Positions 1,185 to 64,000 of a stretch of DNA of 64,000 nucleotides are shown here, in pieces. The position numbers and the translations under genes were made by a program. The stretch spans positions 1 through 64,000 of the forward strand of contig CAJINV010000036.1 of assembly GCA_905178155.1 (NCBI GenBank), in the 5' to 3' direction. How positions within the stretch are numbered: the stretch's first letter is position 1; every line of letters begins with the position of its first letter. The stretch is from Amoebophrya sp. A120. Lineage: Eukaryota > Protista > Dinoflagellata. The notes beneath the pieces were generated by a model. It ran no database searches. It was not told the origin of the DNA and was given only the letters and a program-made list of their open reading frames with translations.

Positions 1185-4100
1185 ATGGCGTTTTTTGGTC
1201 TGAAGGTGAAGCCGGGAAAGCCGGTCGCAGTCGAGGATCCGTTGTCCCCTATGTTGTTTTTGTCTCGCGTCACGGTGCCCGCTGACATGCAGAAGGGGCA
1301 GAAAGCGACGCTGAAAATCATCTCAGCGCAGGACAAACAAAAGTATAATTTGAATCGTAGATACACGTTACAAGATCGAAAGTTCTTCAACACGCAGAAG
1401 TGTCTGCATTTTTACCGCGGCTGATGAATAAATGGCGAAATAAATGTAAATAGTTCTTGTCTGCTACAGCTTTCATCTGCCTGAAAGTGAAAAACCAAGC
1501 CACGAAGTTCTAATTCTAGTTCTACAGATTTTCGAAAAAAATAACAGCCCGTCTGGATTTGCCGTTGCGGTGTTGAAGCCAGGTTTCGAATCGGCCGCTG
1601 TCAACCTCTATGTTGATCTATGCATTGCAAAAGTATCGTACTAGTAGTAATTGCAACACAAATTTGCTCAGCATGACAAATGGAATTTGTCATGCTGATT
1701 TGCGTTGGGAACGAGATTTGTAATGCATGACTGCAATTACTACGAGTACGATACTTTTGCACAGGATATGATCCGATGGAAACCAAATTCGTAGCTGACG
1801 GGCCGGTTGCCCTGGATTTGACCGGATACTACGCACCGGATCAAGGGGATGACGATGACGATATGGATTGTAAAAATGTCTGGGTCTGGGAGATTGCGAG
1901 ACTTGTCATGCTAATCTGGCATGACTCTGGCATCTGTATTGCGTGGCAGCCAAGAGCTCCTCTAGCCTGTCAAGTAAACACGCAGTTTCTCATGCGGAAT
2001 ACGCAACACAGAAGCATGAAAAAACTTGTCATGCTTGGCGGCGCATATACAGTGTCCGTATTATTCAGTGACCTGCATCACAACTTTCCAGACCCAGACA
2101 TTTTTGCATTTGATAGACGAGTCGATGGAGTCGATGGATCTGGATGAGGAAAAGGCAACGCAAGGCGAGGAATCTTCCGACAAGGACAAGGTACTACACA
2201 CAAGCTGATTTCGATTTTGAATAAAAGTAAATCTTAAAACTGAATTTCACCTAAATCCGAAGTATGTAGGGATAACGATAGCATAGCTGTCGTGCTGACC
2301 TCTACTCGAATAGTAATATGACACGACGCTGCTAACAGCAACAGACCACGTCCTTGCTCGCATGAAATGATAGATAAGTTTAAGTAGTACATCACGGCCA
2401 ACAACATCTTCACTACAGAAGCGCGCGGAGGACAAGAAGTTTTGCCGCGACGTGGAGAAGCGGTCGCACTTGGTGCCACCATATCAACTGTAAAAATGTC
2501 TGGGTCTGGAAGAATCCAACTTGTCATGCTGATTTTGGATTCTAAACAAATCTGTATTGCATGAGCAGCAAAGAGAGTCCAAGTTTTGCTACACGGAAAG
2601 AGCATTTGTCATGCGGTATAGGCATCAGCAAGCCCTCACAAAATCTGTGACGCTAGGGCATGCATCACAGACGTCAGGAGTCATGCAAAATGTGCATGAC
2701 AAACCTGGCAATCTTCCAGACCCAGACATTTTTACATTTGATACACCAACGATGGACGACGAGGAGGAGGAGGAAGAAGAGGAGTACGAGTCTGACAGCG
2801 AATTGGAAAAAACGGTAGCTATGCTGAATGACCGCGCCGCTGTCAGTGCTGGTGCTGCAAAGAAGGATCAGCAGCCCGCGTCCGAGTCGGCTGACAAAAA
2901 AAATGTAACCTCAACTACTCCTGTGGAGAAGAAAAGCGAGCAAGTGTCTCCTGCCGCCGCAAAGCCGAAAATTGAAGCCGTGGAACTGCAGAACGACGTT
3001 CCCTCCGCCGCTCCTGCGACGGAGGAACAGAAGAAAACCGAAGACAAAAAGAACGCAGGCGCAAAGCCAACCACGACCAGTGCCGACAAGAACGAGAAGG
3101 AGGTAGCAAAACCGGCTGCCAAGGAAACCGTCGAGTCGGACCTCGAAGACATGAGCAGTACTATACTTGGTTCCGGGCGACTTCGATAGACTTTAGAGCG
3201 CTTAGTTATAGATGCACTATAGTTGAACTTTAGATAAACTATAGACTTTTTGTGTTCGGCCGTGAATTCTTTGTGGCCCTCCCGTTGGCGCCTGCCTTGT
3301 TGGCTGCCCATACTCACGAAAAAGCTCGCATTGCTCGAATTTACGGGCAAAAGCCCGGACTGTCAGACCAAAAGCCCGGACGGCCAGGCACTCACTTCCG
3401 AGATCTTCTGCGGCCTCGCACCTGCCTCGCCGCCTCTCCATCCTGCTGGTTGGCCCAGCTTTCCGCGCTGAATTCGCCAAGCAAAGGCATATTTTGGCGC
3501 AAGGTTTCCCGCGCGCCCGCAGTTTGGCGGATTTCTTCAACCATGTGGCGCAAGAACAGCCGGACCATTGTCGCAGCGCCGGCTGGCCTCCCCCCTCTGT
3601 CTTGATCCATATGCAGAAAAAAAGAGGCGCCGGAGTGAAAAAGTGCGCAAAGTCAAACACTTTTAAAGCAAAAGTCATGGACTTGGCACACTTTTTCGGC
3701 CCTGCGCCTGTTTTCTGCAGAGTTCGTGGCGCCATGATCTTTGCGTGGGTGGCGCATTGCCTGCGTCGCGCGGCGGAAAAAGGTAGGCGGCCGGATGATG
3801 TCTGTACATATGTCGATCGTGTTCAGAAAAGCTCTCTGCCATTTGTGCAGGATTCGTTTCAGAAATTCCTGCCTGAGCAGGCAGCTCTTTCTATTAAAAA
3901 GCAGCTTTTTTCCAATAGAAAAAGCTGCCGCAGGCAGCTTTCACGGAGGCAACTTTTTCTATGTGTTGGAAAAAAGCTGCCTGAGGCGGCTTTTTGGCTC
4001 AATTTGGAAAAAGCTGCCCAGGCAGCTTTTGTTTTTTATCTGAAAAAAGCTGACTGAGGCAGCTTTTGTTATTTGACAAAAGCTGTCTGAGGGAGCTTTG

Positions 4101-6732
4101 TTATTTGTGCCAAGGAAACCGTCGAGTCGGACCTCGAAGACATGAGCAGTATACCTTTTTGCGTTTTGAGTAGTAGTTAAGGGTTGAAAAAGTTAAGGTT
4201 TGCGTCAGGGTTCTTTTGGTTCGTGGTTTCATAGATGTCGCAGCCCCCGCCATTGTTCCTGTTCGCACAGATTTTGTGCGAGGTCATCGCCCATCCAGAT
4301 TTTGTGCGAGGTGTCGCCTCAATTCTGACGAGCGCGCGCTGGCTGATTTGTGGGTCAGCATTTCCCTCGAGATCTAGGCTGGCATCTACGCCAGGCGAGC
4401 CGCCTCGCCCCGCGCGTTACTTGGTACACGGGGCAGGCTGCCCGGCTTTTATGCCTCCGGATCTCGTTCCGCAATCTTGCGGGACGACGTTCGGAGGCAG
4501 AGGTAGAACACCTTCCTGGCCAACCACAGAGATTTTTGTCTCTGTGGTGGCTGCCGCCAAGGCGGCAAGGTTTTGCTCAGGGTTTTGCTTCGAAAAGGCT
4601 CACCGCAATCGAAGCAAAAACTTATTTTTTTCGGGAGCTTCCCCCGAGCTAATAAAATAAGTTTTTGCTTTCGCTTTGCTCTCCTTTTTGTGAACGAAAG
4701 CGCGGAGTTGTTCTGGGCCGGTAGGTTCGCCCATATCGTGTCCAGGCAACCTGCCTGGCCTTGCAAGCTACTTGGAACAAATGGCAGGGCGCCCGGCTTT
4801 TCTGCCTCCGGATCTCGTTCCGCAATCTTGCGGGACGACGTTCGGAGGCAGAGGCAGAGCACCTTCCTGGCCAACCAAAGAGACGCCTGTTGATGCTGAG
4901 GCGTCCGCCGCCGACCTCATCTGCAAACCAAAGCCCGATTTTATTAGGTGGCGTTTCGGAGAAAAAATAATTAAGGTTGTGGTTTGAAGATGAGGTCGGC
5001 AACCCGGTTTGCCCGGGGCTTCCTCCGAGCTAGTAAGGTATGCCAAAGAAGCCGTCGAGTCGGACCTCGAAGACATGAGCAGTATACCTTTTTGCGTTTT
5101 GATTAGGGGAGAAAAATCCATTGCTATCATCAAAATCCTGACCAGAACACGCGAAAAAAAAAGGCTGTTTTTTGGGGCTTTAAACTTTTTCTTTTTTTAG
5201 GCAGTCGACGTCTTCGCGCAACCACTCCGAATAAACGTCTGGGCCCGCCTGGGCAGCCATGGTTTGTCGCTGCTTCGGTTGTCGGGTCTTCTTGGAGTCT
5301 TGCCCCACATGTGCCGGCCGTTCAAGGCGAGGGAGCCCCGGCTGTGAGCGCGCAGCCCTTAGCAAGGCTTCAGGATTTCTGCTCCTCGCCACTGTCGATG
5401 GCGCTTGCGGGTTCCCAAGGCGAGAGCTTTCGAAAGAACAAGACAGCGCCATTAGATTTCGTCCTGCCCGGCCCCGAAGGGGGGTGGCTAGGGGGGTCGG
5501 TTTTGCGGGTACGTCAAATCGCCGGATTCTATAGGGGAGAAGGGGGTCACTTTTGGGGGTCGTTTTTGGGGGTGGCTTCTGGGGCTCTTGTTATTGTTGG
5601 CAAGTGCGGCCTCGTAGGTCTGACTCTTCCCGCCAGACCGATCGGGCCACAACAGGACTGGACTTGATGCGCCCGCCGGGCTGCGTCGGTCCTAGAACCG
5701 GGGCGATGGCCTGACCGCCTTCGGCACCTGGGAAACACGGGGGGCGAGCACCCGGCGGCGCCGCTCACTCCTTCTACCCAATGGCTTCCTGCTGAAGTTT
5801 TCATTTATGTGAAACGCAAAAGCCGCAAGCTAAATTTGCCGGGGCTGCGGCGCTCGCAAGCGGTCTGCCAAATAGGGCGAGACCCCCCAAAAAACAGCCA
5901 ATAGGCTGCCAAGGAAACCGTCGAGTCGGGCCTCGAAGACATTATGGATTGCAAATATGTCTGCGTCTGGAAGAAGACAAACTTGTGATGCGCATTTCAG
6001 AACACAGAAGAATCTCTCATGCATAGGTAGCAAACGCTGCCCAATTTCTGTCACCAGAGTGGGCGATTTGTCATGCGGATTCGGCATTGCGAAAGCTTCT
6101 CGAAACCTGTTATGATAGAGCTTCCATGCCACACCTTCTCTGTCATGCAAAACCAGCATGACTCTTCCAGACCCAGACATTTTTACATCTGATAGACATG
6201 ACGAGCAGTATACCTTTTTGCGTCTCGAGCAGTAGCCTTGCCGCCATTTCACGATCCATATCCCCTGGCTTATGCTTTACCAATGAATTGATATCTTCTT
6301 CTTCATCAATCTATGATAACGAAAATAAAGAGGGGCTGCGGCAACTTCTTGGACTACTTCTATACATAGCATGGTGCGACGAGGACAACCACAACTTCCG
6401 TGTTGAGTATGAAAATCAAATGAATAACTAAAATATCGAAAAACGCAGCTGACGAAGAGGAAGAGTTATACGAAGAGGAGGATTTCGACCCCGACGAGGA
6501 AATCATCGCCCTTGTGCGGGAGGCGAAAAGCCGCGGCCTGCAGATCAATCCAGCCTTGCTGGCGAACTACGAGGAGGCCCTTCGTCGCACCGGAGAAGAG
6601 GACATGGAATTGGCGCCCCCGACCAAGAAGCAGAAGCCGGCTGCAGAACAGGGGGCCAAAACGGTGGCACCCCCTCAAGGGAATAAAAGCAACCAGAACA
6701 AGCAGACCAACGTCAAAGTGAACAAGAAATAA
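1185..6732 (+). CDS. Nucleoplasmin-like (NPL) domain protein with acidic and Lys-rich tracts (putative histone chaperone), multi-exon
   Basis: Reads MAFFGLKVKPGKP...LFLSRVT...FAVAVLKPGFESAAVNLYVDPMETKFVADGPVALDLTGYY, an NPL fold as in HD2/FKBP39 N-termini. GT-AG introns at 1343-1547, 2191-2418 and 3158-6448; three introners removed; ends ...VKVNKK*. Confidence 0.8.
1619..1768. mobile_element. Introner, family B, TSD TGATC
   Basis: TATGCATTGCAAAAGTATCGTACT...AGTACGATACTTTTGCACAGGATA. Excision plus one TSD gives Y-V-D-P-M-E. Confidence 0.92.
1862..2115. mobile_element. Introner, family A, TSD GACGA
   Basis: TATGGATTGTAAAAATGTCTGGGTCTGG...CCAGACCCAGACATTTTTGCATTTGATA. Removing 259 nt joins DDDD to ESMESMDLDEE. 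Confidence 0.92.
2482..2743. mobile_element. Introner, family A, TSD CACCA
   Basis: Family A TIRs. The join gives HLVPPTMDDEEEE. Confidence 0.92.
3117..6235 (+). repeat. Four direct copies of an exon 3' end plus donor site separated by ~0.8-0.95-kb unrelated segments
   Basis: TGCCAAGGAAACCGTCGAGTCGGACCTCGAAGACATGAGCAGTA at ~3117, 4108, 5041 and 5907. Copies 2-4 continue TACCTTTTTGCGT. Confidence 0.9.
5943..6194. mobile_element. Introner, family A, TSD GACAT, inside exon-end copy 4
   Basis: Family A TIRs; GACAT on both sides. Confidence 0.9.
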
Positions 6733-8374: not shown

Positions 8375-11300
8375 ATGTTTCCTTCCAAATCCAGAAATTC
8401 TGCCTCGGCTTCTAGCTCTTCGAGTAGCAGCAACAGGTATCCAACACTGCTGAGCAGCGCGGGTGAACGAGTCCTGCTAGCCGGTCCATCTGCTACATCA
8501 ACCACTAAGCTGGATCCACAGGAGCATCGCGGCGGCTGCTCCAGAACAGCAAATGACGTCAACAAGGTGGCGCGAATCCCATCCTGCAGCTGCTGCTGTA
8601 GCTGCGATTCGTCTTTGCCGTTGGATCAGTTACAACACCTCCTGCTAACAGAGGAAATGTTTTTGGAGCGCGGCAGCACTTCTCCGGAGCAGCATTCTCG
8701 CAGCTGCTGTGCGGACCATGATGCAACTCCAACGTGTCTATTTGCTCCGCTCACCCTGGATCGGATAAAGACCCCGCCGGAGATCCTGGCGCTTCAGATG
8801 GAGAACCAGCACAATAACGCGGCACCCGACGGGTTCTCCTCGACGCCGTCGTCGTCATTGTCCTCATCGAGTGCTCATTTCGAGCAAGCAAAGCGGGTCG
8901 ACGTGTTTTCGCTGTTGCCGAACCACTTCCAGCATGCGCAGAGAAACCGGCAACGGCGACTGACGGACACGAACTATTTCCAGGAGTCGGCTCGGTTCGT
9001 CCCGGGGCGGAAGAAGACCAATCGCAACGCGTTTGAGCCCGCCATAATCGCGCCCAAGTCGCCCAAGGAACGCTCCGGTGCCCGCTCCGTGCGGGAGCAC
9101 CACGAGCTTGCGCTCGATTTTGCGGGCAAAAAAACGAAACCGAAACTCTACCTGCCACCGGAGGAAAAGGAGGAGCTGGATAACAGTGTGCTTTCCCCGC
9201 GCGGAACCACGGCCCGGTTGCAGCAGAAGATGAGCAAGCAAGAAACATCACTGCAAACGACGAGGACCGTGTTAGAAACCACCGCGAATATCGACCTCGG
9301 GACGTCGACGGCGAGCGCCGCCGCGCTGACCGACACCATGCGCCGCACGAACACCACGGCTACCGACTTATCCACCAAGGAGCTTCGCAGCATCATGGAC
9401 GAACTGATCATGCCCACGGAACGGCAGAAGTCGACCGCCCAACTGGAAATCGACAGCGACGAGGACCAGCTGTACACTTCGGACGAGGAGTTTAACAGCT
9501 TGAAACCCAAACAGAAGGAAAATAAACCCGGGGCCGGCCCGACTTCTCGCAACAAGAAAATACTAAACGCGAAGAGCGGCAAGCGTCCCCGGTCCTCGTC
9601 GCCACCGGTGAGCACCACTTCCAGGACCTCGTCCCCGCCCGGCCTCCAGCAGGCCGGCCAGGTTTCCGTGCAGGCCGGCGGCATTACCTTCATCCAGCGG
9701 TCCGAAAACGAGCAATTCGACGACTTCGCAGCAGAAGTTGACGAGGACGACTACGACTCGGACCTGTACAGCGAGAGCCAAGACGGGTTGTCCAGTTTGA
9801 ACGCGTTTTCGCCGGAGGAACGCATCAAGTTCCTGCAGACCAGCACCGACGAGGAGCTGTTGGAGAAGGGTGTTTTCCGGTTGCGCAAGGTCACCGTGGT
9901 CTCCGACCGCGCCACCGAGTTGCGCAGCAGAGAAGCTGTCGAAGAGGAGGGCCGGGACCGGGCGCGGAAGGGGCGGACCAAACTGATGTCGATCGCGGAA
10001 AACGATACGGAGCACGATTTACTGGTTCAGAAAAAGTACAGTGAGCCCGCGCGGGGGCACAGCCGGTCCGTGTTCGACACGTACATATGCATTGCAAAAG
10101 TAACGTACTAGTATAAATTGCATTACAAATTTCCTCAGCATGAGAAATAAAATCTGTAATGCAGATTTACCTTACCAAAGAGGATTTGTAATGCATGACT
10201 GCTATACGAGTACGATACTTTTGCACAGGATAGTACATGGACGACAGCGACGAGTCGTCCGAGGACGAGTCCGCGAGCAAACCCAAGGTGAGCAAGTTCG
10301 ACGGGCGGTCCTCGCAGGAGAAGCAGCGCACGCGCGTGGAGGAGATGGCGCGGCGCGCCGAGGCGGGCGCGGGCCGCCACGGGCCGTTCCAGCTGACCAA
10401 CGACGTGAGCCCGTTATCTCGGTTTGGCAACCTCGCCGTGCCGGGGGACTTTTTGATTCTGGAGGACGTGCCCGGGATCGCGAAGCTCTGGTTCTCCACG
10501 CCGGACACGCGGTCCGTGGGCAACACGGACCCGAAGCTGAGCCAGTTCCGGTCGCCCTCCACCATCGTGACCAACGCCGCTTTGTTCCCGCTCAAGGACC
10601 GGCAGTTTAACCGGCCCCCGCCCGGCGCCCGCGAAGACCTGGACGTGGAGGCCACCGAGTACACATTAGGGCTCGACGGCGACGACGAGGTGATTCTGGT
10701 GGACGTGCCGGACCCGGACACGATGAACTTGGTGGTGCCCCGCGCGGTCCGGGATCCGCACGAGTTCTCGCTGGAGGTGAACAGCAACCAGGCGCCGCGG
10801 AAGCAGATTCTGCTGGCCCGCATGGTGGAGGACCGGCGGCGGCTGGAGACGTCGCTGAAGCAGACCATCGTCATGCGCAAGGGCCAGGTGGACGCGATCT
10901 CCAAGCTGTTCGCCCGCGACGGGCAGAAGGCCACCCGCGCCTGCGGGCCCTTCTGCTTCCCGCGGTACTCGGAGTACAAGCCGGCGCACGGCATGGGGCT
11001 GCCGGTGGTCGAGATGATGCCCGTGTTCGAGGACCGCCGGAACCGGTTCTACCACGTGCGCCGCGTGCTGCGGCCGGCCCGGATCAACATGATCCGGAGC
11101 GCGCAGCAGAAGGAGATCGACCGCGTGCTGCTGGAGCAGAAGAAGGCCGCGGACCTCGCCAAGAAGGGCGGGGGGCTTTTCGGCATGAAGAAGAACTTGC
11201 TCCGCGACATGCTCAAAAAGGACGGCGGTCTGATGGACCAGGTCCGGTCTAGTATCCTGGTCGTGGACCACAAGTCGGTGCACCACAAACCCCCCTACCA

Positions 11301-13036
11301 CCTATGAGAGTGCACAACTCCCCCTCCCCCTCATTTGTATGGCATGAACAGCAACACAAGCAACAGCAGAAAAGCAGCCTTCGCATGACAAATCTGCAAC
11401 TGCATGCGGATTGTAGTACTGTTTGAAGTTCCAAACTTTGTCATGCTAGCAGTGCTTACGAGCAAGGTGTGCGCTTGGTATTTTGCATGACAAATGAGGG
11501 GGAGGGGGAGTTGTGCACTTTCATACCACCTGCTCTACTCCCTGAAGCAGCACGCGGAGTCGTGGAAGAAGTTCGGGCTGGACTGGTGCTACGGGATTCT
11601 CTATCAAATGCAAAAATGTCTGGGTCTGGAACGAAGCAACTTGTCATGCTAAATCTGAATCATGTAAAAATCTGTGTTGCGTGATTACCAAAAGCTGTGT
11701 CCACTTTTGACCTAATGGAGAGGCAGTTTCTCATGCAGGATAGGCATGATAGAACTCTCACAGAATCTGTCATGCTATGTCCTACATACCAGACCTCATG
11801 GGTCATGAAAAACCTGCATGACAAGTCTGGCATTCTTCCAGACCCAGACATTTTTGCAGTTGATATTCTCAACGACCTCACCAGCGACGCGGCTCTCGGT
11901 AACTTTCTGTGGGAGGTTAATTGGATGGGCATGGACCAATCCGCTCGTATGTTCAAGGCCAGCGTCGGAGCAGAAGCCAAGCGGCTATCGGAGAACAAAG
12001 AACTTTTGCTCAGTACCAACTATAGCTATTTACTTGTGTTTTTCATCTTTTTACGACCCATCTTTATTTGTGTTGGCACCATCTACATCATCTACATCTA
12101 CTTGTGAACAACAGCAAATCAGCAACAGTTTTGATGAATTGATCTTTATCACAGATATGTTTACGACGGTTCCCGACGGTGTGATTCGCGAGATGATTAA
12201 GAAGAAACGCGAGATGTTGTATTAAATGTAAAAATGTCTGGGTCTGGAAGATTCTAAACTTGTAATGCTGTCTTTGGATTCTAAAAAAATTTGTATTGCA
12301 TGACCAGCAAAAGGACTCCAGTCTGTGCTACGTGGAGAGGGCATTTCTCATGCGGTAGAGGCATCACAAAGTCCTCTAAAAATCTGTGATGCTAGGGCAT
12401 GCATCACAGACATCCACATCATGGGTCATTCAAAATATGCATGACAAGCCTGGCAATCTTCCAGACCCAGACATTTTTACACTTGATATGTTGGGGAAAG
12501 AGACCAACGTCGAGAACGAGCTGCTCCAGGCGGACGTGGAGCGGATCCGGAAAGAGATGTTGCAAAAGCAGGGTGTGGACCCACGGAAGGCCACGGAGTC
12601 GAAGATTATGGAGAACCACCGGCACCACGAGACGGAACTGCGCGACATGCCGCTGCGGCACGTGCCCCAGTACATCTGTGCGGTCCGCGACATTTCGCAG
12701 GCCTGCGAGATCCGGCAGGCGTACCCGCCTTCGCACCCCCGCTACGCGAACATCAGCCGCCTCTACTGCGTGGGGTGCCGAAAAATCATCCTCCGGCTCG
12801 GGGAGCGCACGACCTTCTTCTACTGCCACAAGTGCATGGAGCGCGGGAGCCAGCCGTACTGCCTGTGCAGTAACTGCAACGACCAGTTCCGCATGAGTCT
12901 CATGGCCTACAAGCTCTTGGAGGACACCGCCGAGGCCGAGAAGGAGCGCATGGCCGCGGACCTGCTGGCGAGCATGGAGCAAGACGACGAAGATTCGAAC
13001 GCCAAGAAGGCCACTGCTGCACTCTTTGGGAGTTAG
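8375..13036 (+). CDS. Large hypothetical protein with C-terminal Cys-rich (ZZ-like) zinc finger; start uncertain
   Basis: ORFs 8375 and 10237, a short exon 11531-11601, and the exons ending in the 12386 ORF join in frame after removing 4 introners and GT-AG intron 12013-12154. Contains YCVGC...YCHKC...YCLCSNC. Confidence 0.7.
10086..10232. mobile_element. Introner, family B, TSD GTACA
   Basis: Same TIRs as 1619-1768. The join gives VFDTYMDDSDE. Confidence 0.92.
11303..11525. mobile_element. Introner, family C, TSD CCACC
   Basis: TATGAGAGTGCACAACTCCCCCTCCCCCTCATTTGT...ACAAATGAGGGGGAGGGGGAGTTGTGCACTTTCATA. The join gives PPYHLLYSLKQ. Confidence 0.92.
11602..11865. mobile_element. Introner, family A, TSD TTCTC
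   Basis: Family A TIRs. The join gives CYGILNDLTSD. Confidence 0.92.
12220..12488. mobile_element. Introner, family A, TSD TGTTG
   Basis: Family A TIRs. The join gives KKREMLGKETN. Confidence 0.92.
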
Positions 13037-32494: not shown

Positions 32495-32607
32495 AAATAC
32501 CATCGAACGGACCCAATCTTGTCCGTTTTTCGTTTTAATAGGCATTGTCTCAACAGGAAGGTTGGTTCTGCAACTTGGCAAAAGTGTAGTACGATTGAGT
32601 CGCGCTG

Positions 32608-50531: not shown

Positions 50532-52427
50532 ATGCTCCCCATGGATTTCGAAGAGTGGGGAGAGAGTAGCGGCGGCTCCCAGTTGGGAAGCTTTGCGCAG
50601 CTGGTAATTTGCGGTGTAGTTGGCTGGTATTTCGTGCGGGGGAATCGTGCGGAGCCGGCAAGTACGACCCCCTCCTCACCCTCGACCAGCAAATCAAGAA
50701 AAAAGAAGGACTGTGCGGGTGGTGTTAGTAGCGACGACGAGCCAATACAGGATGCAGCACCCAACCACCTGCGGCCGAAAAAGAGCCTGGCCAATATGAC
50801 TTGTTCAAACTACCACTCGTCCCACTCTCGTGGTCTCCAAGCTCTACTTGTGCCTCGACGTCTCCCATGATGATACCTTGCAACTGTCTCTCATGTTTTC
50901 TAAACGCACATCTGTTTGAGTTTGACAGTATCTATTAGTAACGATTTGCAGGAGGTGGAACCAGATGTGGGACAATAGTTTGAGCAGGTGATACGCATGG
51001 CCTACTTTTTCTACATCTCCGGGGGATTTCTGACAGGCTCACACCACTTATACCTGGAGAATTATGAGTACAACTTATATATTGGATACCGCTCCTGTGA
51101 TTTAGTCACATGCCTCTTGTTGAATTGAGGTGTCAACTTTCTTTCATTTCTTTCAAATAGAAAGGCCTGAAGCCCGTAGGTGTATCATCTACTACGGTGA
51201 GCAAGACCACGTCTTCATGAAGGCTACAAATCTAATAAGCCACTAGACTGCGCCAGCGGCGCACAGGCACAGCCACAGCCCACTCGGTTCGTCAGGCCGC
51301 GCAACAACCGTATATTTAGACATCGTCGAGACGCGAAATGCAAAAATGAATCATCAACACTTTTTCAGGTACGGCACGACCTACTTGTTCACCCTGGGGT
51401 ACTTCTTTATCGGCATGTGCGCCGATGCGTTCCTGCTCCCGGTATATGTATACAACCACAACCGGAACGTGCACCCCCAGGCCGTCCAGGAGTCCTTCCG
51501 CGTCTGTCAGTTGCTGTGGAGGTTCTGCAAGCTCTGCTTGCTCCTGAGTGTGCTTTTCACGGCGTTCCTCGCCTTTTTCCCCGTCACGTACGAGTACGCC
51601 ACAGGGGAGTTTTTGGCGAACACCAACGGAGTATGAGACTGCACAAATGTTACTCCTCTCGTCGTCACGCGTAAGCATACAACCACACCATACATACGAG
51701 GATTCTGTTCTTGTCTTTTGGCACTGCTTGCATGACAGCTTCTATCTTCCCGCAGCCATTGAATTTGAACTCGAAGATCGCGCGGGGGCTTGTCATGCAG
51801 TAGCGACAGTTCTAGTTGTACAACCAATCAATGCTTGTGTTATTGTTCATGCCCTTCAAATGATGGAGGGGGGACCGCTTGTGCAAGCTCATACGAGGCC
51901 ACGGTGATGCAGAACCCCTACGACGTTCTGGAGATACCAAGGGGCAGCACCATGCCGGACGCTCACAAAGCCTACAAAAAGATGTCGATGAAGTACCACC
52001 CCGACAAAAATTCCAGCGCTGACGCCAAGGACAAAATGGCCAATGTCAACGCCGCTTACGAAACGATAAAAAAGGTACTTCAACATCTACTTTGTGCTTT
52101 CATGATTACACTTGTTGTTGCATTCCCATTCTTTATCGCAGCTCCGCGCACCTGCTGAAAAAAATCGACAAATGATCATTCCAGGGCACGATCGGGCTGG
52201 AATTCAGTGAAGACGGACTGACGGAGATGGCGGAACGATGGGTGGAGAAGTGGAAAACGCTGCTGAACTATTTGGAAACCTCGTCCAAAGCTCGCAAAAA
52301 GGAGAAGGAGGACAAGACCAAAAAGGCCAAAGAGACAGAAGACACACCATCGGATGGAACGACCAACAAGAAAACCAGCGACAAAAAGAAATCATCTTCC
52401 AGCACAAGGAAAACAAAGGGACGGTAG
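50532..52427 (+). CDS. TM2-domain plus C-terminal J-domain membrane protein (DNAJC22/Wurst-like)
   Basis: KKSLA.AYFFYISGGFLTGSHHLYLENYEYGTTYLFTLG and NPYDVLEI...AYKKMSMKYHPDKN...VNAAYE. Two introners plus GT-AG introns (51068-51368 and one from ~52075). Confidence 0.8.
50795..50993. mobile_element. Degenerate introner, family E, decayed TSD GCCAA/CGCAT
   Basis: TATGACTTGTTCAAACTA...TAGTTTGAGCAGGTGATA imperfect TIR. Removing 204 nt restores the TM2 motif. Confidence 0.75.
51632..51893. mobile_element. Degenerate family C introner, TSD CGGAG/CGAGG, now bounded by GT...AG
   Basis: TATGAGACTGCACAA...TTGTGCAAGCTCATA. Removing 267 nt joins the TM region to the J-domain exon. Confidence 0.85.
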
Positions 52428-53893: not shown

Positions 53894-54739
53894 ATGGACA
53901 CGAAAATAAATATTTCAGTCGTGAAGCCGGGTCAGCTCGTGGGTTTCACGGTCAGTGGGGGATCCACCGAAAGCGAAGTGTGGGTTGCAGTCGACGGAGT
54001 TGACCAAGATATTGCAGAGCGAAAGTTTCCGTCGTGTGTGGGCACCGTAGCAAGGAGGCGTTGCGAGCCGCCCTTGCCCTTGGCCGATGATCTGGATGTC
54101 AACGTTCCTGACACGACCGCTGATCCAGCCACGGCCGAGCACGTCGATAACTCCTTCGTTCTGCGCGTCCGTGTACCGCGCTGCAGCGAGAGCGACCGCG
54201 TCGATCAAGACTCGCACGGCACGACGGACGCAGGAGCCGCTGCAAGAACCATCCGCCACAGAAGCACGGAAGAGAACATTGACGAGACAGAAGATGACAC
54301 CATAAGTACGAAAGCAAATTGCGGGAACAAAGCTAGTGGCACGACCACGCGAACGAGCAGGGCGAGTACGATGGCATCATCCACAGCTACACCGTCGTCG
54401 TCAAGCAGTAGTTCATCTTTTTGCGAGTACAACCCGAACGACGACGGCTCGCAAAAACATTTCCAAGAGCAAGTTCAGCAAGGGAACCCTTTCCGGACCT
54501 CGGGTCTGGCGGAGAACGAGGTGGACACCGCTGGTGCTGGAGCTGGGGCTTCTACAACCGGGACAATTACAGCGCCATTTGTACCATCAGAGACTGCAGC
54601 AGCTCGCATCCAGCAGGTGGAAAATCACGCTGGTGTCCCAGCAGATGAAAGTACTAACTCGCACAGAGGCATCGTCCCCCCAGAAGACGCACAAGAACAA
54701 CAAGATGAGTACCCAGCTTCGAACTTTCCCAATCTTTGA
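53894..54739 (+). CDS. Hypothetical protein exon; true start probably upstream
   Basis: 281-codon ORF with coding-like composition; no family recognised. Confidence 0.45.
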   Translation: MDTKINISVVKPGQLVGFTVSGGSTESEVWVAVDGVDQDIAERKFPSCVGTVARRRCEPPLPLADDLDVNVPDTTADPATAEHVDNSFVLRVRVPRCSESDRVDQDSHGTTDAGAAARTIRHRSTEENIDETEDDTISTKANCGNKASGTTTRTSRASTMASSTATPSSSSSSSSFCEYNPNDDGSQKHFQEQVQQGNPFRTSGLAENEVDTAGAGAGASTTGTITAPFVPSETAAARIQQVENHAGVPADESTNSHRGIVPPEDAQEQQDEYPASNFPNL

Positions 54740-54899
54740 AATCACTAACACGGTACGTAAAGAAAACAGCACCTCTAGTAATCAGGCATGTTCTTGCATG
54801 CACTTGCAAAAAGAAAACTCGCACGCGTTGTGATCTTCTTTGTTCATCTAGGACGTCCACGCTAAGATATTGTAGCACGGAACAGGCATGCGCGCAACT

Positions 54900-57800
54900 T
54901 CAGACCGAGTGGAAATTGGGATCGATTTTCGTTTTCAAGATTCCTACCAGGACATCCCGATTCCCGAGAACCTGTTGGAAGCAGCCCGAAGGTACCTGCT
55001 GCAGCATAGCTGCTTTTTAGATATTCTTCTCGCTATCCATGATCCAACCAATATGTATATCCTTCAGAATCTGAATGTGAATCATTATCGTGGTCATGTG
55101 ACCGTGCCCGTGCGGTAGCTAGAAGTATGCCATTGGCCTGTGAGTATGACTCCCAGTCCGATCTTCACATGACAATAACTACAAGCATTATAACACACAG
55201 GAGTCTACAGGAGCCCCTGGCAATCGGAGCGGTGCTTGCGTGTGAAGTGCAGAACGGCGAAATCGTTGCAGGCCCTGTCTGGAAACAGATAGTCGCAGGT
55301 AATGTAAGTTGTAGCTGTTTTGCTGTCATGAACATGCACATATTGGTCACAAAATCTGTGAGACCTCCCAGATACATCACTTGCCTGACTCGGAAGTTGA
55401 GACTTCCACGCGAAACGATTTTTTGCGAGGTAGTTTTTCCGCTTATGCCACTGACAACTGAAACTGTCCCCATCTGAGGCAAGCCGAGCCGCGTTTCTCT
55501 TCTGTGTCATTCTCGATAAGAGTCATGAAAAGTCTCGATGCAATACCAATGGAGTTGCAGAAATTCTCCTGTGTGGCAAGAAGAATGAATGACCGCATGC
55601 GAAACTGCGGTTCTGCCTGCTGTGGGCGGACCACGTAGATTTTTGAATGCGATATCGAGACGCGCCTGTTCCCGAAGCGCGCGGCCACGAACACCGAAGC
55701 CGATGCCAGCGACGCTCCAACAACCACGGCAGCAGCTACAGGTGGCGGCAGAAAAAACGCGCTAGCGGAAGAAGCAGACTTCAATGCGGCACTGCAGGCG
55801 GCGGAAGATCTGATGAACCTCGAGTTTTCGACAACGGCCGGAGGTGATCATGACGTCGAAATGCGTCCTTCTGAGGAAGAGATGCAGACGCAGGCCGCTG
55901 CAAAGCTGCCACAGGACGCAAAGGCAAACTCCTCCTCGAGTACTATATCAGAGAAAGAGCTGCAGCATGAAGGCGCGCAGGAAAAGCCTTCTGCCGAAGC
56001 TTCTGCAACAGGAGCGGCACCGGTACCAACCGGGACGACACCCGCCACATCCTCGTCCTCCACCACAGCGCAGAATAACATGCAGGGAGTGCATATGGAA
56101 GCGTCGGGATCTGGACCGAAATCAACAAAATCGAAATGATTTGTGATGCATAAAAACGCTACCAGTTGGAGCCTCATTTTCCAAGTGGGGCATGACAAAT
56201 TTCGGGAGCAACAAAATCCAGCCTGTCATGCTGTTTGGGCAAGGAAGGCTGCTCCTCTCATGCTACTCTGGCAGCGCATCGCCTTCCCCTAAACGGGCCT
56301 GCATTCGGTCCCATTTGCCTCCTCCCCAACACAGGCCATACGTGCCCTACATTTTATGCATTACAGATTTTGTAGATTTTGATTCTAACACCTCCATAGT
56401 GCACTCCGCTAGATCCGCGCGGAGTCGGCATTACTGGTGTGACGACGACATCGACACGAATTTAGAAAACATTCGTATGGGCACCGTGACGTCGACCAGC
56501 ACCCCAGACAATGACCACACGGTGATCATGACCATGAATCGAGAAATGATCTTTTGCCCGACCGAGTATCTGCAAAAACTTCGGCTTGCGCCCGGCACTG
56601 ACGTCGCCTGCTCCGTCTATACTGACGAAGATGGGCATCCAGTGGTAGTTTGTTACTCCACGTTTTTCTGCTTCTTGCTGGTTGAGAAGCAAAGAGTAAA
56701 TACATACGTAGAGCTGCAATCCTGATAGCTATATGCAAGAACGAGCTTGGTACTACAGTCGCCTGCTAGTTCACAATTTCAACTTCTCTTTCAGGCCGAC
56801 AGCAGCAAACCGCTCTGGGAGCTCTCCACGCCATTCTATCCTACTGATAGCATTTCTCACATCAAGACCACGACCGAGCGCTAATATTGTAAACAAGCAA
56901 GATAGAAACTACAACTTTTTTGACTATGCATAGTACTTGTTACGCGGTGATCTCCGCAGCTGAAGATCCTGTTCTAGACATGTTGTCGACGACATATCTA
57001 CAAAGGCGAGATGAGACCGCCGCATTTAATTGCAGTAAATACAGTTACATCGGTCGTGAGCATGTTTTTGTTGTTGTCATGCAACTATTGACGAAGGCGC
57101 AATCCTGAAAGACGCCATGTGCCGGCACGACTGATTTCTAGGATTCTAAGGAATGCTACTTTTTCCAGTATTTCTTCAAAGAGGAGCAGGTGCCATTCTT
57201 TGGCCAGTACTACGGACGCGTGATAAATCTAAGCTCGCACGTATCATACAGAGAAAATGCAGAACGTAGAATTCGCCCTAGACCAATACCATTGGCGTAG
57301 GCAAGGCTCTTGTAGATCGGGGCTCCTGTCGTTCTTGCGATAATATCGGAGCACTGGAGTATTGCTTTCCGCCCAGCAACTACTAACTGTCTCTGTCAAG
57401 CGCAACAAGCGCATTCCGGCGCGCGTGAAAATAAACAGAACGACGCTTAGCTGCAAGCGCAAGCATTGGTTCGCGGTCTCGCGGCTGCATTTATTCCTTT
57501 TGTGTCGATACCAGGGAAACGGCTTCATTGATTGCGACGCGCTGAAAACCGAGTACGGGCACGACCCTTTTGTCCACCAAAAGATTATGCGTCTCTGCGA
57601 CATCCAGCTGGGGGACATGATCAACTTTACCGTGCACATCAACAGCAGTGGCACGCCCCAGGTTTCTGCCCCGGTTTGGCGGAAGTGCGAGGAAAACCGG
57701 AAGAAATTACCTCAAGTAAGTGCTGTGTTTACCCATTTCTGAACCTTAGTTGCCTTGGTACTGGTGGTATATATTCAGGTATTTGCATTCCCTAGCTAAT

Positions 57801-60408
57801 TGACTTGGCCGTTCGACATCAAAGCGGGTGTTTTTTGGTCAAGTACTGGTAGCAAATTGTTGAAAGTGAAACACATTATGCCGGCCACTTACTCTCAGGA
57901 ACTCAATGAGCGCGTACAACAGTCACTCGCTCGCCTAAAGAAGCGAGCACGCAATTGATGTCAATTTCGTTTCAGGAACACCAGCATCTTCAGCATGGGA
58001 AGGGCAGCGGACGACCGCAGCAGTCAGTCTTGGAGCAAATGAAGGGCGCAGCCGGGATGTACATGAAAGGTGGCTCGTCGTCGTCCCTCGCGATGAGTAT
58101 ACTGAAAGGCGGCGTTTTCCCGCCCCATCCTGGCGCGCTGAGCATGATGAAGGGCGGCGTCGCGCCATCGGCGCACCCACAGCTGCGCATCCCCGATCCG
58201 ATGCTCTCGTGCCCGGCCGGTTCTCTGGGTGCCTTGATCGGCAGTCCGATGGAGGAGCAGTCCGCGCGAAGCAGCCCCTCCTTTCCGATCGGCTCGACTA
58301 CCCCCAACCAGCAGCAGCCTTTCGGTACCAGTGTCCTAACCCCTGGGGGTTCTAGCGCGACTTCTCATCAAGGCTCTTATGGCCCTGCGACTTTTGGAGG
58401 TGCAACTAACAGAAACCGGAATCAACCCCGCGGCCACCCTTACGGCGCCCAGGCAGCTGGATCTGGGTCACACTTCTTTGACAACAGCATGAAAAATGGA
58501 TATGGAGATATGCTGGAAGAAAACATCACACAACTTGGTGTCCTGCTACCTCTTACCTGAACCTGCCCCTTGGAGTTGGAGATGATGGCACCTCCACCTC
58601 CTGTGCTTTCGGCTTATAGACATGATTAAAAAACTAAAAGCCTTCGACGTTTTTCTGTGCATTCGTTCCATCTCTGTTCCGTTCACCAATCTCGTTAGAC
58701 AGGAAAAAGCTCGAGTCGAAGGAGGTAGGACCACCTGGACAGCACCATCCATATGCCGTTGATTTGGTACAACGTGTACAAGGTTTTGTATGATTTTGAA
58801 AGTACTATAACAGGACAGCTTGTGTTCTGCTGCATAATCTCAGTCTCGTCTAGGGCGCAGATGACAGGAAACGGCAACTCGTCCGTTTCGCCGAAGGAGT
58901 ATCTACACCTTCAGCACGGTATGGATTGTAAAAATGTCTGGGTCTGGAACATTGAAACTTGTGATGCTAACTTTGGACTCTAGAAAAATCTGTATTGCAT
59001 GACCAGCAAGAGGAGTCTACTTTGTGCTACGCAGGGAGGGCGTTTGTCATGCGGAGTACGCATCAGGAAGCCCTCTCAAAATCTGTGATGCGCGGTCGTG
59101 CATTACAGACATCCTAGGTCATGCAAAACATGCATGACATATCTCAGAATCTTCCAGACCCAGACATTTTTACATTTGATACACGGGAACTGGGAACTGA
59201 CGGGCGTCATGCCCAACTCGGCTGACGCTCGGAATCCGTTGGCCTTCAATCCGGACTGCGAGGGCTGTCTGAAAAACACCAACACCATGGGGCACGGGTT
59301 TCTCGCTTGTCCTGCATTTCCTGGAGACGATGTCTTCGTTCACAAAAAAGTAATGGAAAGGTACCACGCCAAAATGTTGATTTCTCATTACCAGTTTTGA
59401 AACTCCGCATCTTCAAGCGATTAAAAAGATATTTTGATTTCGTTTTCGTACCGTCGAAAATAATGAAGATATTTGAACGCGCAATTCATTTTCGTGAAGT
59501 AGAGCAACGGCATTTGTCGGATCCCAAAACCAGGTGCAATCTCTCCGTCGGAGATCGGGTCCGGTTCAATGTGCACGTTAGTGCTACGGGCACTGCGCGT
59601 ATCCTAGTGGAAATAATGTCTTCCAGCGATAGCATTACCAGGGTGCATGTGATGTTGAAACAAATGCCTTCAGGAAAGAATCTGAAAAAGGCAGCAGGTT
59701 GCATAAAAAGAACCCAATATGGACGCACTCCTATCTATGCATCACAACCAGGGGGCAAAGAAAATCCTGAGTACGTCGCAAGTCCGGCTGATCTTTTACC
59801 TTGGATAGCGCAATGCTCGGCACCGGTGTGGGTGTACCGTGGGCCAGCGCCGATGATGTACTGAGTCATCTTCTAACACTATCACCGCCAATAAGTATTT
59901 CCCTCACGACTTCAGATGAACCAGAAACCTCGGCGTGGCGAGCGACGGTGAAACGCCATCAGTCGACTGCGCATCCATTTTTCCCCCCCGACTGCTGAGA
60001 ATAGGCAAAACTTCGAGGAAGGTTACGGCACCGGAGGATTGCAGTAGTTTAGATGATTCTATCGGAGGCAAATGTGTCTGGGTCGCGAAGACTGCGTATT
60101 AATGTTTGTCAGGCATCTTCTGGAGCACGCAGCAGCTGGGCATGGGATGCCAAAAAAGCATTACAGGCTGTGAGCAGAAGGCTTCCTCATCATGTCTGCC
60201 CAGCATGCGAAAACGAAATTCGCTATTCGTGTAAGAAGAAGAGGGCAGGAGCTTTGTTAATTTGTATTTGGCCGACACGCAATACAATGATCTTCTTTGC
60301 GAATGCGATTGCGATTCAGTCAGACGAGTCAGCATGACATTCAAGGACCAGATATCTTTGCACTGGATAGATTCGACGCATGGGTTTGATCTCATCGACG
60401 AAACGTAA
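54900..60408 (+). CDS. Multi-exon protein with repeated cold-shock/OB-fold-like domains; start approximate
   Basis: GNGFIDC...DPFVHQK...GDMINFTVHINSSGTPQVSAPVW and GHGFLAC...DVFVHKK...GDRVRFNVHVSATGTAQCSAPVW, plus two more degenerate repeats. Four introners and several GT-AG introns. Confidence 0.65.
56094..56398. mobile_element. Introner, family D, TSD GTGCA
   Basis: TATGGAAG...AAATCAACAAAATC...TGATGCATAAAA pairs with TTTTATGCATTACA GATTTTGTAGATTT...CCTCCATA. Removing 310 nt joins ORFs 55813 and 56192. Confidence 0.85.
58920..59181. mobile_element. Introner, family A, TSD CACGG
   Basis: Family A TIRs. The join gives HLQHGNWELTG. Confidence 0.92.
59600..59807. mobile_element. Highly degenerate introner, TSD GCGCG/GCGCA
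   Basis: TATCC...GGATA ends. Removing 213 nt restores GTAQCSAPVW, colinear with the paralogous repeat GTPQVSAPVW. Confidence 0.8.
60060..60369. mobile_element. Degenerate family A introner, TSD GATTC
   Basis: TATCGGAGGCAAATGTGTCTGGGTC...GACCAGATATCTTTGCACTGGATA, flanked by GATTC on both sides. Confidence 0.82.
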
Positions 60409-62122: not shown

Positions 62123-64000
62123 ATGAAGAACATGATGGGGAGCTGCATGTTTTCGTCTGCAGTAGTTGTTCTTGCGATTGCCAATGTAGGAGCCGCTGCT
62201 GAGTCTCTCTGGCCCGTTGACGAATCGCAAAATCCGATTCCGCTTCCATCGCCTCTGTCGACGGTGGGATGCGAATGGCGGAACGTGACGGTGCCAGGAG
62301 TGTCTCCTCCAGGACGAGTGATGTCCACCGCCGCCTCCACTACCGAGGGACTTTTACACGGTAGGACGTCTACCGTCGAACACTACGCAATCGCTGATGG
62401 GTGGTACTCCTCCACGGGCAAAAACGTATCGGAACTTCGAAAACCGTTGCGCAAGGGCGACCTGGTACCGACGGGCGTGACCGCGTACGTAGCGATACTC
62501 TGCGGCACGACGGAGGAGGACCAAAACGAGGCTTTGGACGACGGGGAGGTGTTTTCCACCTCGTCTAGTATCCCTCTAGCTATGCTGCAGGAGCACGTCG
62601 AGTCTTCAGGCGATGATTGGGGCAAAGGCGATGCCTGGTGCGGGCCGGGTCGCGTAGAGGACCGGGCGTGCGTGTACGAGAATCTGTGGCACGTGCCACC
62701 GGCGCTCTCATTTTCGGCGGGGGCCAGGGTACTGGGAATATCGTCCACATCAAACATGGAGGAGAAGGATCAGGAAGCCGAAGCACGCTCTATTACCACC
62801 TCTTCCCTCCGGGACTGGGTGCTGCTTGACAACGTCAAAGAACTCAAACGCGAGGATTTATCTGCCAAGGACAAAAACAAAGAGAAGGTTGACGACAACG
62901 ACGACGTGCTGATGTCGACGACACTTTTTGCCAGTGAGACGAATTCGCACGCTCAGTGGGCGGGTCGATGGACTGTGCGACCACAAAGAATCGCAGAGAA
63001 GAGCGTGCTGAAAGAAGTCGTTGCCGGTTTTTCTTTGCCGCCGCTTGTGGTGCGCGACGAAGTTCTTTTGGTTTCGCGGAGCGACGCAAGCGGGTCGGCC
63101 CACTTTCTGTACGATACGGTAGTCCCGGCGGTCGCGGCCGGTGCTGGAGCGGCGTCGTTGCACGACACCTCTGCGAGTTCAGCAGGACAAGCGGAAGGAC
63201 CTCCTGCAGCAGGAGAAGTAGACTCTTCCACTTCTCGCAGTGTTCTTACGGAGGTCAGCAACACCAGGGGGCCGAAGGTCGTGTTTGTCGACGATTGCAG
63301 CCTGACGGGGCGGGGCCCTACCATCGAGTTCCGCCAGCAGAACGCCCCGGCGCCGGCGACATCTGGGGAAACTTGGTTCGCGAACAGCCTGTATGCTAGC
63401 AAATATGTCTGGGTCTGAAGGAATGCGAGTCTGTCGTGCTTTTCTCACATGGCTCTTGAATTTGTCATGCACATTACCCAAGAGCCCCATTTTTCTGTCA
63501 TGCAGAAACGGAGTTTGTCATGCAGAATAGGCAAGAACACCTAGAAGCTCAGAAACTTGTCATGCTGCGCCAGCATTATTTGTGGCCTCCTCATGATACG
63601 CCACCCAGCTTCACAAGTTTCCAGACCCAGACACTTTTGCATTTGATAGCCTGCGCAGTTATCCGGCCACCTGCGCGATCATCACAAGACAATGGAGCGA
63701 CGCCGTGTTCGGGGAGGGTCAATGGACCTCTTTATCAGCGTTGACGCAAAACCACAGGCGCGCGGTGCTGTTCCGCCGAGCGGCGTCGGGCGGCATGCAG
63801 GTTTTCTCGCCGTGGCAGAAAGACCATCCCTATCGGCGGCCGGGGCTGATGCGACCACTGTTCGCACAGATCCAGGAAAGGCTGGCGGCTTTCGCGGCGG
63901 GGGATCGTCGTGTGGGGCTCGGAGAAAATAAAGGGAAGTGCGAAAAGAACGAAGTGCAACCTCTTGGGGAAAAACGTGAAGTTGATGCTGAAAATAACTG
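62123..64000 (+). CDS. Secreted/membrane glycosyltransferase family 61-like protein, 3' partial
   Basis: Signal-like N-terminus, RACVYENLW and SAHFLYDTVVP. The frame stays open to the window end after removing the introner. Confidence 0.55.
63392..63648. mobile_element. Introner, family A, TSD GCCTG
   Basis: TATGCTAGCAAATATGTCTGGGTCTG...CCAGACCCAGACACTTTTGCATTTGATA. The join gives ANSLRSYPATC. Confidence 0.9.

What the first reader, a model, noticed from the sequence alone, without database searches (positions are those of the whole stretch)
1614..63653. Multi-family introner system: TAT...ATA hairpin elements with 5-bp TSDs act as non-GT-AG introns
Seen: 19 elements in at least 5 families with different TIR sequences share one rule: 5'-TAT, ATA-3' and a 5-bp flanking duplication of arbitrary sequence (TGATC, GACGA, CACCA, GACAT, GTACA, CCACC, TTCTC, TGTTG, GTCCT, GCCAT, GTCTA, GTGCA, CACGG, GATTC, GCCTG, plus 4 decayed pairs). 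In each exonic case, deleting the element plus one TSD copy rejoins the frame seamlessly. Most copies have no GT/AG at the required positions, and ordinary GT-AG introns occur in the same genes. Known: invasive inverted-repeat introner elements with non-canonical boundaries are described in Amoebophrya, and to my knowledge their excision mechanism is unresolved. Inference: the RNA stem and the TAT/ATA ends, rather than the dinucleotides, define the splice sites, and one transposase type mobilises all the families.
Basis: partly seen in the sequence, partly recalled or inferred. Interest (0 to 1): 0.92.

Follow-up and report, generated by a model that had tools for sequence, protein, structure and literature searches.

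The report
Hairpin introns cut at fixed register
Small hairpin-shaped mobile elements, already known from the marine parasite Amoebophrya, are removed exactly from the RNA without the usual GT-AG signals; older copies place the cuts one base before and four bases after the element, which likely is the splice code of a still unidentified machine.

Summary
The window is Amoebophrya sp. A120, whose inverted-repeat introners with TAT starts and 3-5-nt direct repeats were described by Farhat 2021 (PMC7789003). I find 23 elements: 15 with perfect 5-nt duplications and 8 decayed. RNA contigs support removal of element+5 nt for 15 of 23; the other 8 were not tested or not covered.

What I add is the cut position. 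Copies whose duplication has decayed pin it: the intron starts 1 nt before TAT and ends 4 nt after ATA, the only register compatible with all 15. One of 9 non-GT-AG joints does not fit. In a related assembly the elements sit in exons in both orientations (32:33) with no GT or AG enrichment. One spliced copy has lost its long stem but kept TAT/ATA.

No transposase was found; a Ginger-like one is a literature lead. The splicing machine is inferred: a U1-less spliceosome (0.5) or a Euglena-like separate pathway (0.35).

The parts
1619..1768 (+). Element, family B, perfect 5-nt duplication; predicted intron 1618-1772
   Evidence: frame restored; RNA joint not shown
1862..2115 (+). Element, family A, perfect duplication; predicted intron 1861-2119
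   Evidence: RNA joint not shown
2482..2743 (+). Element, family A, perfect duplication; predicted intron 2481-2747
   Evidence: RNA joint not shown
5943..6194 (+). Element, family A, inside the GT-AG intron 3158-6448, inserted in a duplicated exon end whose three paralogues (3117, 4108, 5041) carry the empty site with one copy of the 5-mer
10086..10232 (+). Element, family B; intron 10085-10236, 152 nt removed
   Evidence: adjacent contig pieces
11303..11525 (+). Element, family C; intron 11302-11529
   Evidence: piece end and exact contig length
11602..11865 (+). Element, family A; intron 11601-11869
   Evidence: exact contig length 4382
12220..12488 (+). Element, family A; intron 12219-12492
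   Evidence: piece end and exact contig length
15382..15704 (+). Decayed element (duplication 4 of 5) in a protein kinase gene; predicted intron 15381-15708
   Evidence: RNA joint not shown
20269..24245 (+). Family-C-like element with perfect duplication carrying a 3.75-kb nested element; removal joins a 1454-codon frame
   Evidence: outside the stretches laid with RNA
30913..31180 (+). Element, family A, opposite orientation to 2482 (96% alike inside); predicted intron 30912-31184
   Evidence: outside the stretches laid with RNA
45390..45538 (+). Element, family B, in the ISN1 5'-nucleotidase gene; intron 45389-45542, 154 nt removed
   Evidence: joint in 4 of 4 runs; no indel against 8 of 9 fetched proteins, one of which is this gene's own annotated product
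50795..50993 (+). Decayed element (duplication 2 of 5); intron 50794-50997; allows registers -3 to -1
51632..51893 (+). Decayed element (3 of 5); intron 51631-51897, also GT..AG; allows -1 or 0
55444..55654 (+). Decayed element (2 of 5), no end stem; intron 55443-55658, TT..GA, follows a 13-nt exon; non-slidable, register -1 only
   Evidence: table 5c
56094..56398 (+). Element, family D; intron 56093-56402
   Evidence: exact contig length 4432
56837..57172 (+). Decayed element (3 of 5, ends ATT); intron 56836-57176
57242..57510 (+). Decayed element; intron 57241-57514, also GT..AG, stem kept
   Evidence: exact contig length and 201-nt next exon
58509..58836 (+). Decayed element (0 of 5); intron 58508-58840, AT..CT; non-slidable, register -1 only
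   Evidence: joint in 4 of 4 runs
58920..59181 (+). Element, family A; intron 58919-59185, 267 nt removed
   Evidence: joint
59600..59807 (+). Decayed element (4 of 5); intron 59599-59811; excludes register 0
60060..60369 (+). Element in the 3' UTR; intron 60059-60373, 315 nt removed although no frame depends on it
   Evidence: joint; position after the stop codon
63392..63648 (+). Element, family A; predicted intron 63391-63652
   Evidence: no RNA joint shown
54709..54943 (+). Non-canonical GT..TC intron, non-slidable, that does not fit the rule

Best explanation
These are non-coding inverted-repeat elements flanked by 5-base duplications that are removed exactly from the RNA by a cut one base before their TAT start and a cut four bases after their ATA end, likely made by a remodelled spliceosome that reads the paired ends instead of GT and AG. 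SHOWN: the elements, the 5-nt duplication of arbitrary sequence, removal of element+5 nt, and the -1/+4 register. Because 1+4 equals the duplication length, the original target sequence is restored and any insertion in either orientation is silent. INFERRED, mobilisation: an integrase-related (Ginger-like) DDE transposase encoded elsewhere moves the TAT...ATA families in trans by a 5-bp staggered cut. INFERRED, excision: the inverted repeat brings the two ends together in place of U1 (not detected in A120). The U2/U6 core then cleaves one base before UA, as it does in this genome's canonical GUA donors, but without needing G at +1. The 3' site is set by distance from the terminal AUA, one of whose adenosines (-7 or -5) may be the branch point, rather than by AG.
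For: Removal: 8 listed joints plus one from table 5c; adjacent pieces for 10086; three contigs whose lengths equal the model exactly (4432, 4382, 2077). Register: -1 is the only value allowed by all 15 RNA-supported copies, and two non-slidable joints (55444, 58509) allow -1 alone. TAT and ATA at two fixed places have a chance of 2.2e-4 per joint. In a related assembly one decayed copy matches the A120 protein only at -1 or 0 and another excludes -5 and -4. All 9 top A120 non-canonical motifs in Farhat Table S4 start N-T, and all 9 A25 motifs start TT where repeats start TTA. For a spliceosome: all 12 canonical donors examined here start GTA, so both intron classes have U+2 A+3. Both GT..AG hairpin introns have those dinucleotides exactly at -1/+4 (2 of 8 decayed copies, 0 of 15 intact). 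U1 was not detected in A120 or A25 while other snRNAs were, and U1 is present in the canonical-intron strain Kv. Branch sites fixed a few bases from the 3' end exist in other spliceosomes (PMC2483917). Transposase lead: A120 fam38 is noted as 'Ginger, 5-bp TSD, TA/TA termini' (PMC12130899 sd07).
Against: One of 9 non-GT-AG joints (54709-54943, GT..TC) does not fit, and 6 further joints were not shown. The register rests on only two fully non-slidable joints. In the related assembly one decayed copy (L060 5329-5608) gives one residue too many against the A120 protein at every register. No strand asymmetry such as a spliceosome would favour was found: G at +1 in 54 of 161 (51.8 expected), AG at the end in 19 of 161, TATG versus TATC at the 5' end 25:36, no strand-biased branch motif, orientations 32:33. 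This fits a dedicated symmetric enzyme at least as well. Table S4 motifs may partly reflect aligner choices at slidable junctions. No lariat, circle or transposase was seen. Farhat found no transposase in A120, and the Gozashti main text says fam38 lacks homology to known Gingers and their termini. The RNA evidence is assembled contigs from one study and two samples.
Confidence: 0.5

Rival explanations
1. Same elements and same -1/+4 code, but excision is done by a separate, non-spliceosomal pathway: a structure-specific endonuclease plus ligase, or the unknown machine that removes Euglena nonconventional introns as circles.
For: No dependence on orientation or on GT, AG or a branch motif. The geometry is like the Euglena rule N3-CDG...CHG-N5-6 (PMC12501133): a short paired triplet with a short 5' and a longer 3' overhang. 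Predicted pairing of +2..+4 with -5..-7 has probability above 0.6 in 17 of 21 elements folded and 0 of 10 canonical introns.
Against: The 5' cut coincides with the canonical G-U-A register. U1 was lost although 35% of introns stay canonical. Copy 55444 is spliced with no end stem. Two hybrid GT..AG hairpin introns occur among 8 decayed copies, whereas hybrids are reported as rare in Euglena.
Confidence: 0.35
2. The joints are reverse-transcriptase template switches across hairpins flanked by direct repeats, not splicing.
For: Intact copies are strong hairpins (z -2.5 to -11.4) with a direct repeat at the base, the classic substrate (papers seen as search listing only). All RNA data used here are presumably cDNA-based.
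Against: Copies with no repeat (58509, 0 of 5) or no stem (55444) are removed at the same register. The ISN1 contig is spliced at depth 242 with little cover over the element. The elements carry stops or frameshifts in conserved genes.
Confidence: 0.03
3. The elements are cut out of the DNA in the expressed nuclei, like ciliate internal eliminated sequences.
For: TA-bounded ends with exact restoration of the target recall such sequences (from memory).
Against: Contigs of the DNA-like run X7 run from exons into element ends at depth about 45-50 with no differences. The RNA contigs lack GT-AG introns and elements alike. Only 15 of about 1000 joints were shown, so a minor excised DNA form is not excluded.
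Confidence: 0.03
4. The elements spread by an RNA route (reverse splicing or retrotransposition) rather than by a DDE transposase; this concerns mobilisation only.
For: No transposase found in A120 by Farhat or here.
Against: A uniform 5-nt duplication (117 of 132 perfect; lengths 3, 4, 6, 7, 8 near chance), no orientation bias, and an insertion inside an intron with empty paralogues point to a DNA staggered cut.
Confidence: 0.09

Closest known systems
Amoebophrya A120 inverted-repeat introner elements (Farhat et al. 2021, PMC7789003)
   Same: Same genome. Repeats start with TAT, direct repeats of 3-5 nt (5 bp in Fig. S19 legend), hairpins, many families, RNA-supported non-canonical introns beside GT-AG introns.
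   Different: That paper calls splice sites variable relative to the hairpin and the border unknown (Fig. 3 legend). Here the register is fixed at -1/+4 and the duplication is uniformly 5 nt. Its figures were not visible to me and may already hint at this.
Amoebophrya A120 introner family 38 and Ginger/TDD transposons (PMC12130899; PMC2836005)
   Same: Terminal inverted repeats, 5-bp duplication, TA...TA termini; TDD-4/5 make 5-bp duplications.
   Different: Gingers start TGTNR and mostly make 4-bp duplications. The window's elements encode nothing, and whether they share ends with family 38 was not tested.
Euglenid nonconventional introns (PMC12501133; review PMC11282704)
   Same: No GT-AG, paired terminal triplets at fixed offsets from the cuts, frequent direct repeats, MITE-like origin; register resolved from non-slidable introns.
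   Different: Triplets CAG/CTG with offsets 3 and 5-6 and a purine at the exon start, against TAT/ATA with offsets 1 and 4. Euglenid introns are released as circles; the product here is unknown.
Fritillaria borealis MITE-derived non-canonical introns (seen through review PMC11282704 only)
   Same: Inverted-repeat elements with duplications removed by an adapted U2 spliceosome.
   Different: They have preferred ends (AG-AC, AG-AT) and a TAC target; here the target and both end dinucleotides are free except U at +2.

Membership tests
Amoebophrya A120 introner elements | Host is A120 | tested here: met
   ISN1 exon 100% identical to an A120 protein
Amoebophrya A120 introner elements | Inverted repeat starting TAT at both ends | tested here: met
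   22 of 23 TAT...ATA, one TAT...ATT; end duplex beyond chance in most intact copies
Amoebophrya A120 introner elements | 3-5-nt direct repeat over the exon/intron borders | tested here: met
   15 of 23 perfect 5-mers in the window; 117 of 132 family A copies in the related assembly
Amoebophrya A120 introner elements | Repeated, in families | tested here: met
   clusters of 164, 47, 10 and 9 copies include window members
Amoebophrya A120 introner elements | Removed from RNA at non-GT-AG sites | tested here: met
   15 of 23 supported, 13 of these not GT-AG
MITE (non-autonomous TIR DNA transposon) | Short, inverted repeats, duplication, no coding frame, high copy number | tested here: met
   empty-site paralogues for 5943
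MITE (non-autonomous TIR DNA transposon) | Cognate autonomous element with the same ends | tested here: inconclusive
   none in 542 kb of loci plus the window; 8 hits over 400 nt, none with an open frame above 267 aa, and the 6.2-kb one is two separate copies; whole genome not held
Ginger DNA transposons | TGTNR termini | tested here: not met
   termini are TAT...ATA against TGTNR
Ginger DNA transposons | Integrase-like DDE transposase | not testable with these tools
   no coding copy in hand; literature lead only
U2-type spliceosomal intron | GT/GC donor and AG acceptor | tested here: not met
   2 of 23 GT..AG; 7 of 161 in loci
U2-type spliceosomal intron | Branch-point motif and lariat product | not testable with these tools
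   no strand-biased motif at the 3' end; contigs cannot show lariats
Euglenid nonconventional intron | N3-CDG...CHG-N5-6 with purine at the exon start | tested here: not met
   N1-TAT...ATA-N4 instead
Euglenid nonconventional intron | Release as full-length circle | not testable with these tools
   no back-joint among the 15 joints shown; uninformative for contigs

The most novel reading that the evidence does not exclude
A120 uses a single, orientation-free splice code, N|TAT...ATA-NNNN| read from the intron's side (one free base, TAT, any sequence, ATA, four free bases). Its offsets sum exactly to the 5-bp duplication of the transposase, so splicing and transposition are matched and every insertion is born a perfect intron. 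A U1-less spliceosome or a new enzyme measures the 3' site from the terminal AUA with no G at +1 and no AG. A25 would use the same UA register with its own ends.
Probability: 0.6. Interest if true: 0.75.

Novelty: already known. Interest (0 to 1): 0.48.

Why it matters
About 65% of A120's RNA-supported introns are non-canonical (Farhat Table S4) and how they are excised is open. A fixed -1/+4 register turns 'variable boundaries' into a precise code. It predicts exact lariat or circle junctions, allows re-annotation of tens of thousands of introns, and explains why a transposon with a 5-bp duplication can invade exons in either orientation without harm. It also gives a second lineage, beside Euglena, in which paired triplets at fixed offsets replace GT-AG. 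The elements themselves are not new.

Tried and rejected
Orientation asymmetry: in the window 8 copies have TATG at the 5' end with GATA at the 3' end against 1 the other way (hand count), and 7 of 8 family A copies face one way. This did not hold in 189 copies oriented by a codon model in the related assembly (25:36; 32:33, 20:14, 9:9, 2:2, 4:4; the two family A counts overlap). The model called 11 of 19 window test copies, all correctly, and left 8 uncalled. G-U versus A-C mismatch test: no excess. An apparent AG preference at duplication positions 3-4 in 23 copies shrank with more data; only G at position 4 is mildly raised (66 against 51 expected, one of 20 cells). Mutation-direction test in 28 imperfect duplications: uninformative. 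Six-frame open-frame test in loci: weak (82% for +5 or +8 against 66-70% for other lengths). Autonomous copy: none; the 6.2-kb hit in L065 is an artefact of two family B copies. Two end motifs had no match in viral contigs. The metagenome scan covered 16 of 64 parts; all 148 loci stored come from one assembly, JACKZZ01. Raw-read run X10 laid only 210 reads, nearly all at 90-95% identity on element ends, so it holds a different strain or organism and says nothing on these genes. The search for an orthologue of an L024 exon gave only weak short hits. L060/L061 against a 67%-identical A120 protein: decayed copies were inconclusive and one gave an extra residue. Rfam: no match. Pfam on 9 frames of the two long insertions: one sub-threshold hit only. 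Two look-ups of earlier findings returned nothing. In some searches the 20269 element was entered one base off; corrected with the same open frame.
Full report
Observation. A scan for TAT...ATA flanked by a perfect 5-nt repeat gave 15 hits of at most 400 nt (shuffles: mean 1.94, maximum 5). Twelve have an inverted-repeat score of 5 or more, against none in 100 shuffles. Fourteen flank short elements; the fifteenth flanks 20269-24245, which carries a nested 3.75-kb element bounded by split direct repeats. RNA joints, contig lengths and inspection added 8 decayed copies, for 23 in all. Removing element+5 opens the frame at every exonic copy. In ISN1 the joined protein aligns without indel to 8 of 9 fetched proteins, one being its own annotated product. 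The copy at 5943 sits in a duplicated exon end whose three paralogues hold one copy of the 5-mer, direct evidence of insertion with duplication.

Source. The ISN1 exon is 100% identical to a protein of Amoebophrya sp. A120. Farhat 2021 (PMC7789003; I read sections 10, 11, 12, 16, passages, and supplement legends and Table S4 rows, not the figures) describes these introners in this genome: TAT starts, 3-5-nt direct repeats, hairpins, U1 not detected, no transposase, and splice sites 'variable' relative to the hairpin. The system is therefore known.

RNA. I laid assembled contigs of runs X1, X4 (RNA-like), X7 (DNA-like) and raw reads of X10 on 1200-16700, and X1-X4 on 44300-64000. X1-X4 are guessed RNA, one study, two samples; they skip ordinary GT-AG introns and leave intron interiors uncovered, so they behave as RNA. 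One search showed 15 of 21 joints: 7 GT-AG and 8 others, plus one more joint behind a 13-nt exon in table 5c. Eight listed joints remove element+5 exactly (45390, 50795, 51632, 56837, 58509, 58920, 59600, 60060), and so does the table 5c joint (55444). One search gives 10086 from adjacent pieces. Three contigs have exactly the length of the gene model (4432, 4382, 2077), which adds 11303, 11602, 12220, 56094 and 57242; length sums could hide compensating errors. That makes 15 of 23; the other 8 were uncovered, not shown or outside the stretches. The 60060 copy is in a 3' UTR, so exact removal is not a product of selection for frame. Element sequence is also abundant in RNA contigs from other loci (depths, loose ends), so some copies persist in RNA as precursor, retained or excised forms.

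Register. With a perfect duplication the cut can slide; decayed copies fix it. Allowed positions of the 5' cut relative to TAT are -3..-1 (50795), -1..0 (51632, 57242), -3..0 (56837), -5..-1 (59600), and -1 only (55444, 58509). The intersection over all 15 is -1, which puts the 3' cut 4 nt after ATA. These copies were found through RNA joints, not through the motif, yet kept TAT/ATA while the adjacent duplication decayed. Of 9 non-GT-AG joints, 7 fit 6 of 6 bases, one fits 5 of 6, and one (54709-54943, GT..TC) does not fit. Outside support: in a related assembly (JACKZZ01; one exon 93% identical to A120) 13 elements in one gene join colinearly with the A120 protein, one decayed copy needs -1 or 0 and another excludes -5 and -4. 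One copy in another gene leaves an extra residue. Farhat's nine commonest A120 motifs all start N-T, though aligner choice may contribute. I found no statement of this register in searches; subscription papers such as Roy 2023 and Henriet 2019 are not held, and Farhat's Figs 3 and S19-S25 were not visible.

What defines the sites. In 148 loci (542 kb) family A copies defined by their inner repeat alone end TAT...ATA in 132 of 144 (one end was partly selected by the search pattern), and 117 of these have a perfect 5-mer of mixed composition; 336 elements were found in all. In copies oriented by a codon model there is no bias in orientation, no excess of G at +1, only 19 of 161 ending AG, and no G-U excess in the stem. 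Predicted pairing of +2..+4 with -5..-7 is likely in 17 of 21 elements and 0 of 10 canonical introns, but 55444 has no end stem and is spliced. The terminal triplets at fixed distance look essential; a long stem looks helpful but dispensable in at least one case.

Mechanism. Shown: insertion with a 5-nt duplication, and cuts at -1/+4 whose offsets add up to that length. Inferred: the excision machine. I favour a remodelled U2/U6 spliceosome (0.5). All 12 canonical donors examined start GTA, so the hairpin cut falls in the same U+2 A+3 register. U1 is undetected in the two strains with such introns and present in a canonical strain (PMC12005148, passages). Both hybrid GT..AG copies use exactly this register, though 2 of 8 is a weak count. 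Short fixed branch-to-acceptor distances have precedent (PMC2483917, passages). The full symmetry and lack of a branch motif favour the main rival, a Euglena-like separate pathway (0.35; PMC12501133 passages; review PMC11282704 section 6). Template switching and DNA excision are unlikely for the reasons given under rivals.

Mobilisation. No coding copy was found, and no whole genome was available. Gozashti 2025 (PMC12130899; section 6 and rows of supplement sd07) lists A120 family 38 with a 5-bp duplication, TA/TA termini and an integrase-like frame, but also a Mutator-like family with other ends. A Ginger-like enzyme is a lead, not a result, and the Ginger terminus test fails (PMC2836005 passages). 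Supplement file 14 of PMC12130899 was not searched.

Verdict. Real and already known as a system. The fixed -1/+4 register appears to be an unreported, testable refinement resting on a small sample. Interest 0.48.

Noticed in passing
window 20439-24197: A 3.75-kb insertion nested in an introner, with split direct repeats A...B A B (162 nt 99% alike; 128 nt 97% alike) and a 73-nt tandem array. The layout recalls Ngaro/VIPER-type tyrosine-recombinase retroelements (from memory); no Pfam hit in 5 frames tested. If spliced, the hairpin intron shelters it.
   Followed up: partly
window 54709-54943: Non-slidable GT..TC intron in 4 of 4 runs that fits neither GT-AG nor the TAT/ATA rule; the frame needs it.
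   Followed up: partly
window 3117-6448: A 3291-nt GT-AG intron holds three further copies of the preceding exon end with their own GT donors, plus palindromic repeats; RNA uses the first donor.
   Followed up: partly
window 615-836: Intergenic inverted repeat with 93-nt arms, 96% complementary, not bounded by TAT/ATA with a duplication.
   Followed up: no
window 35631-37740: Tandem array of 385-nt units, 5.5 copies, 90% alike, AT-rich.
   Followed up: no
window 27690-29143: Gene with an RRM in its last exon that reads like a U1A/U2B''-type snRNP protein (recalled likeness); of note because U1 snRNA is reported missing.
   Followed up: partly
window 55430-55442: 13-nt exon between a GT-AG intron and a hairpin intron.
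   Followed up: yes
run X10 laid on window 11602-11688: Raw RNA reads of a different strain or organism hold a family A end at 90-95% identity joined to another flank (63 reads), so the family is present and transcribed unspliced there.
   Followed up: no
L020, L042, L043, L065, L067, L069: Family A copies of 480-970 nt in assembly JACKZZ01 with perfect duplications and no long frame, apparently carrying inserts.
   Followed up: partly
window 47163-47318: Canonical GT-AG intron that matches the TAT/ATA rule at 5 of 6 bases but has no stem; chance or a very old copy.
   Followed up: no
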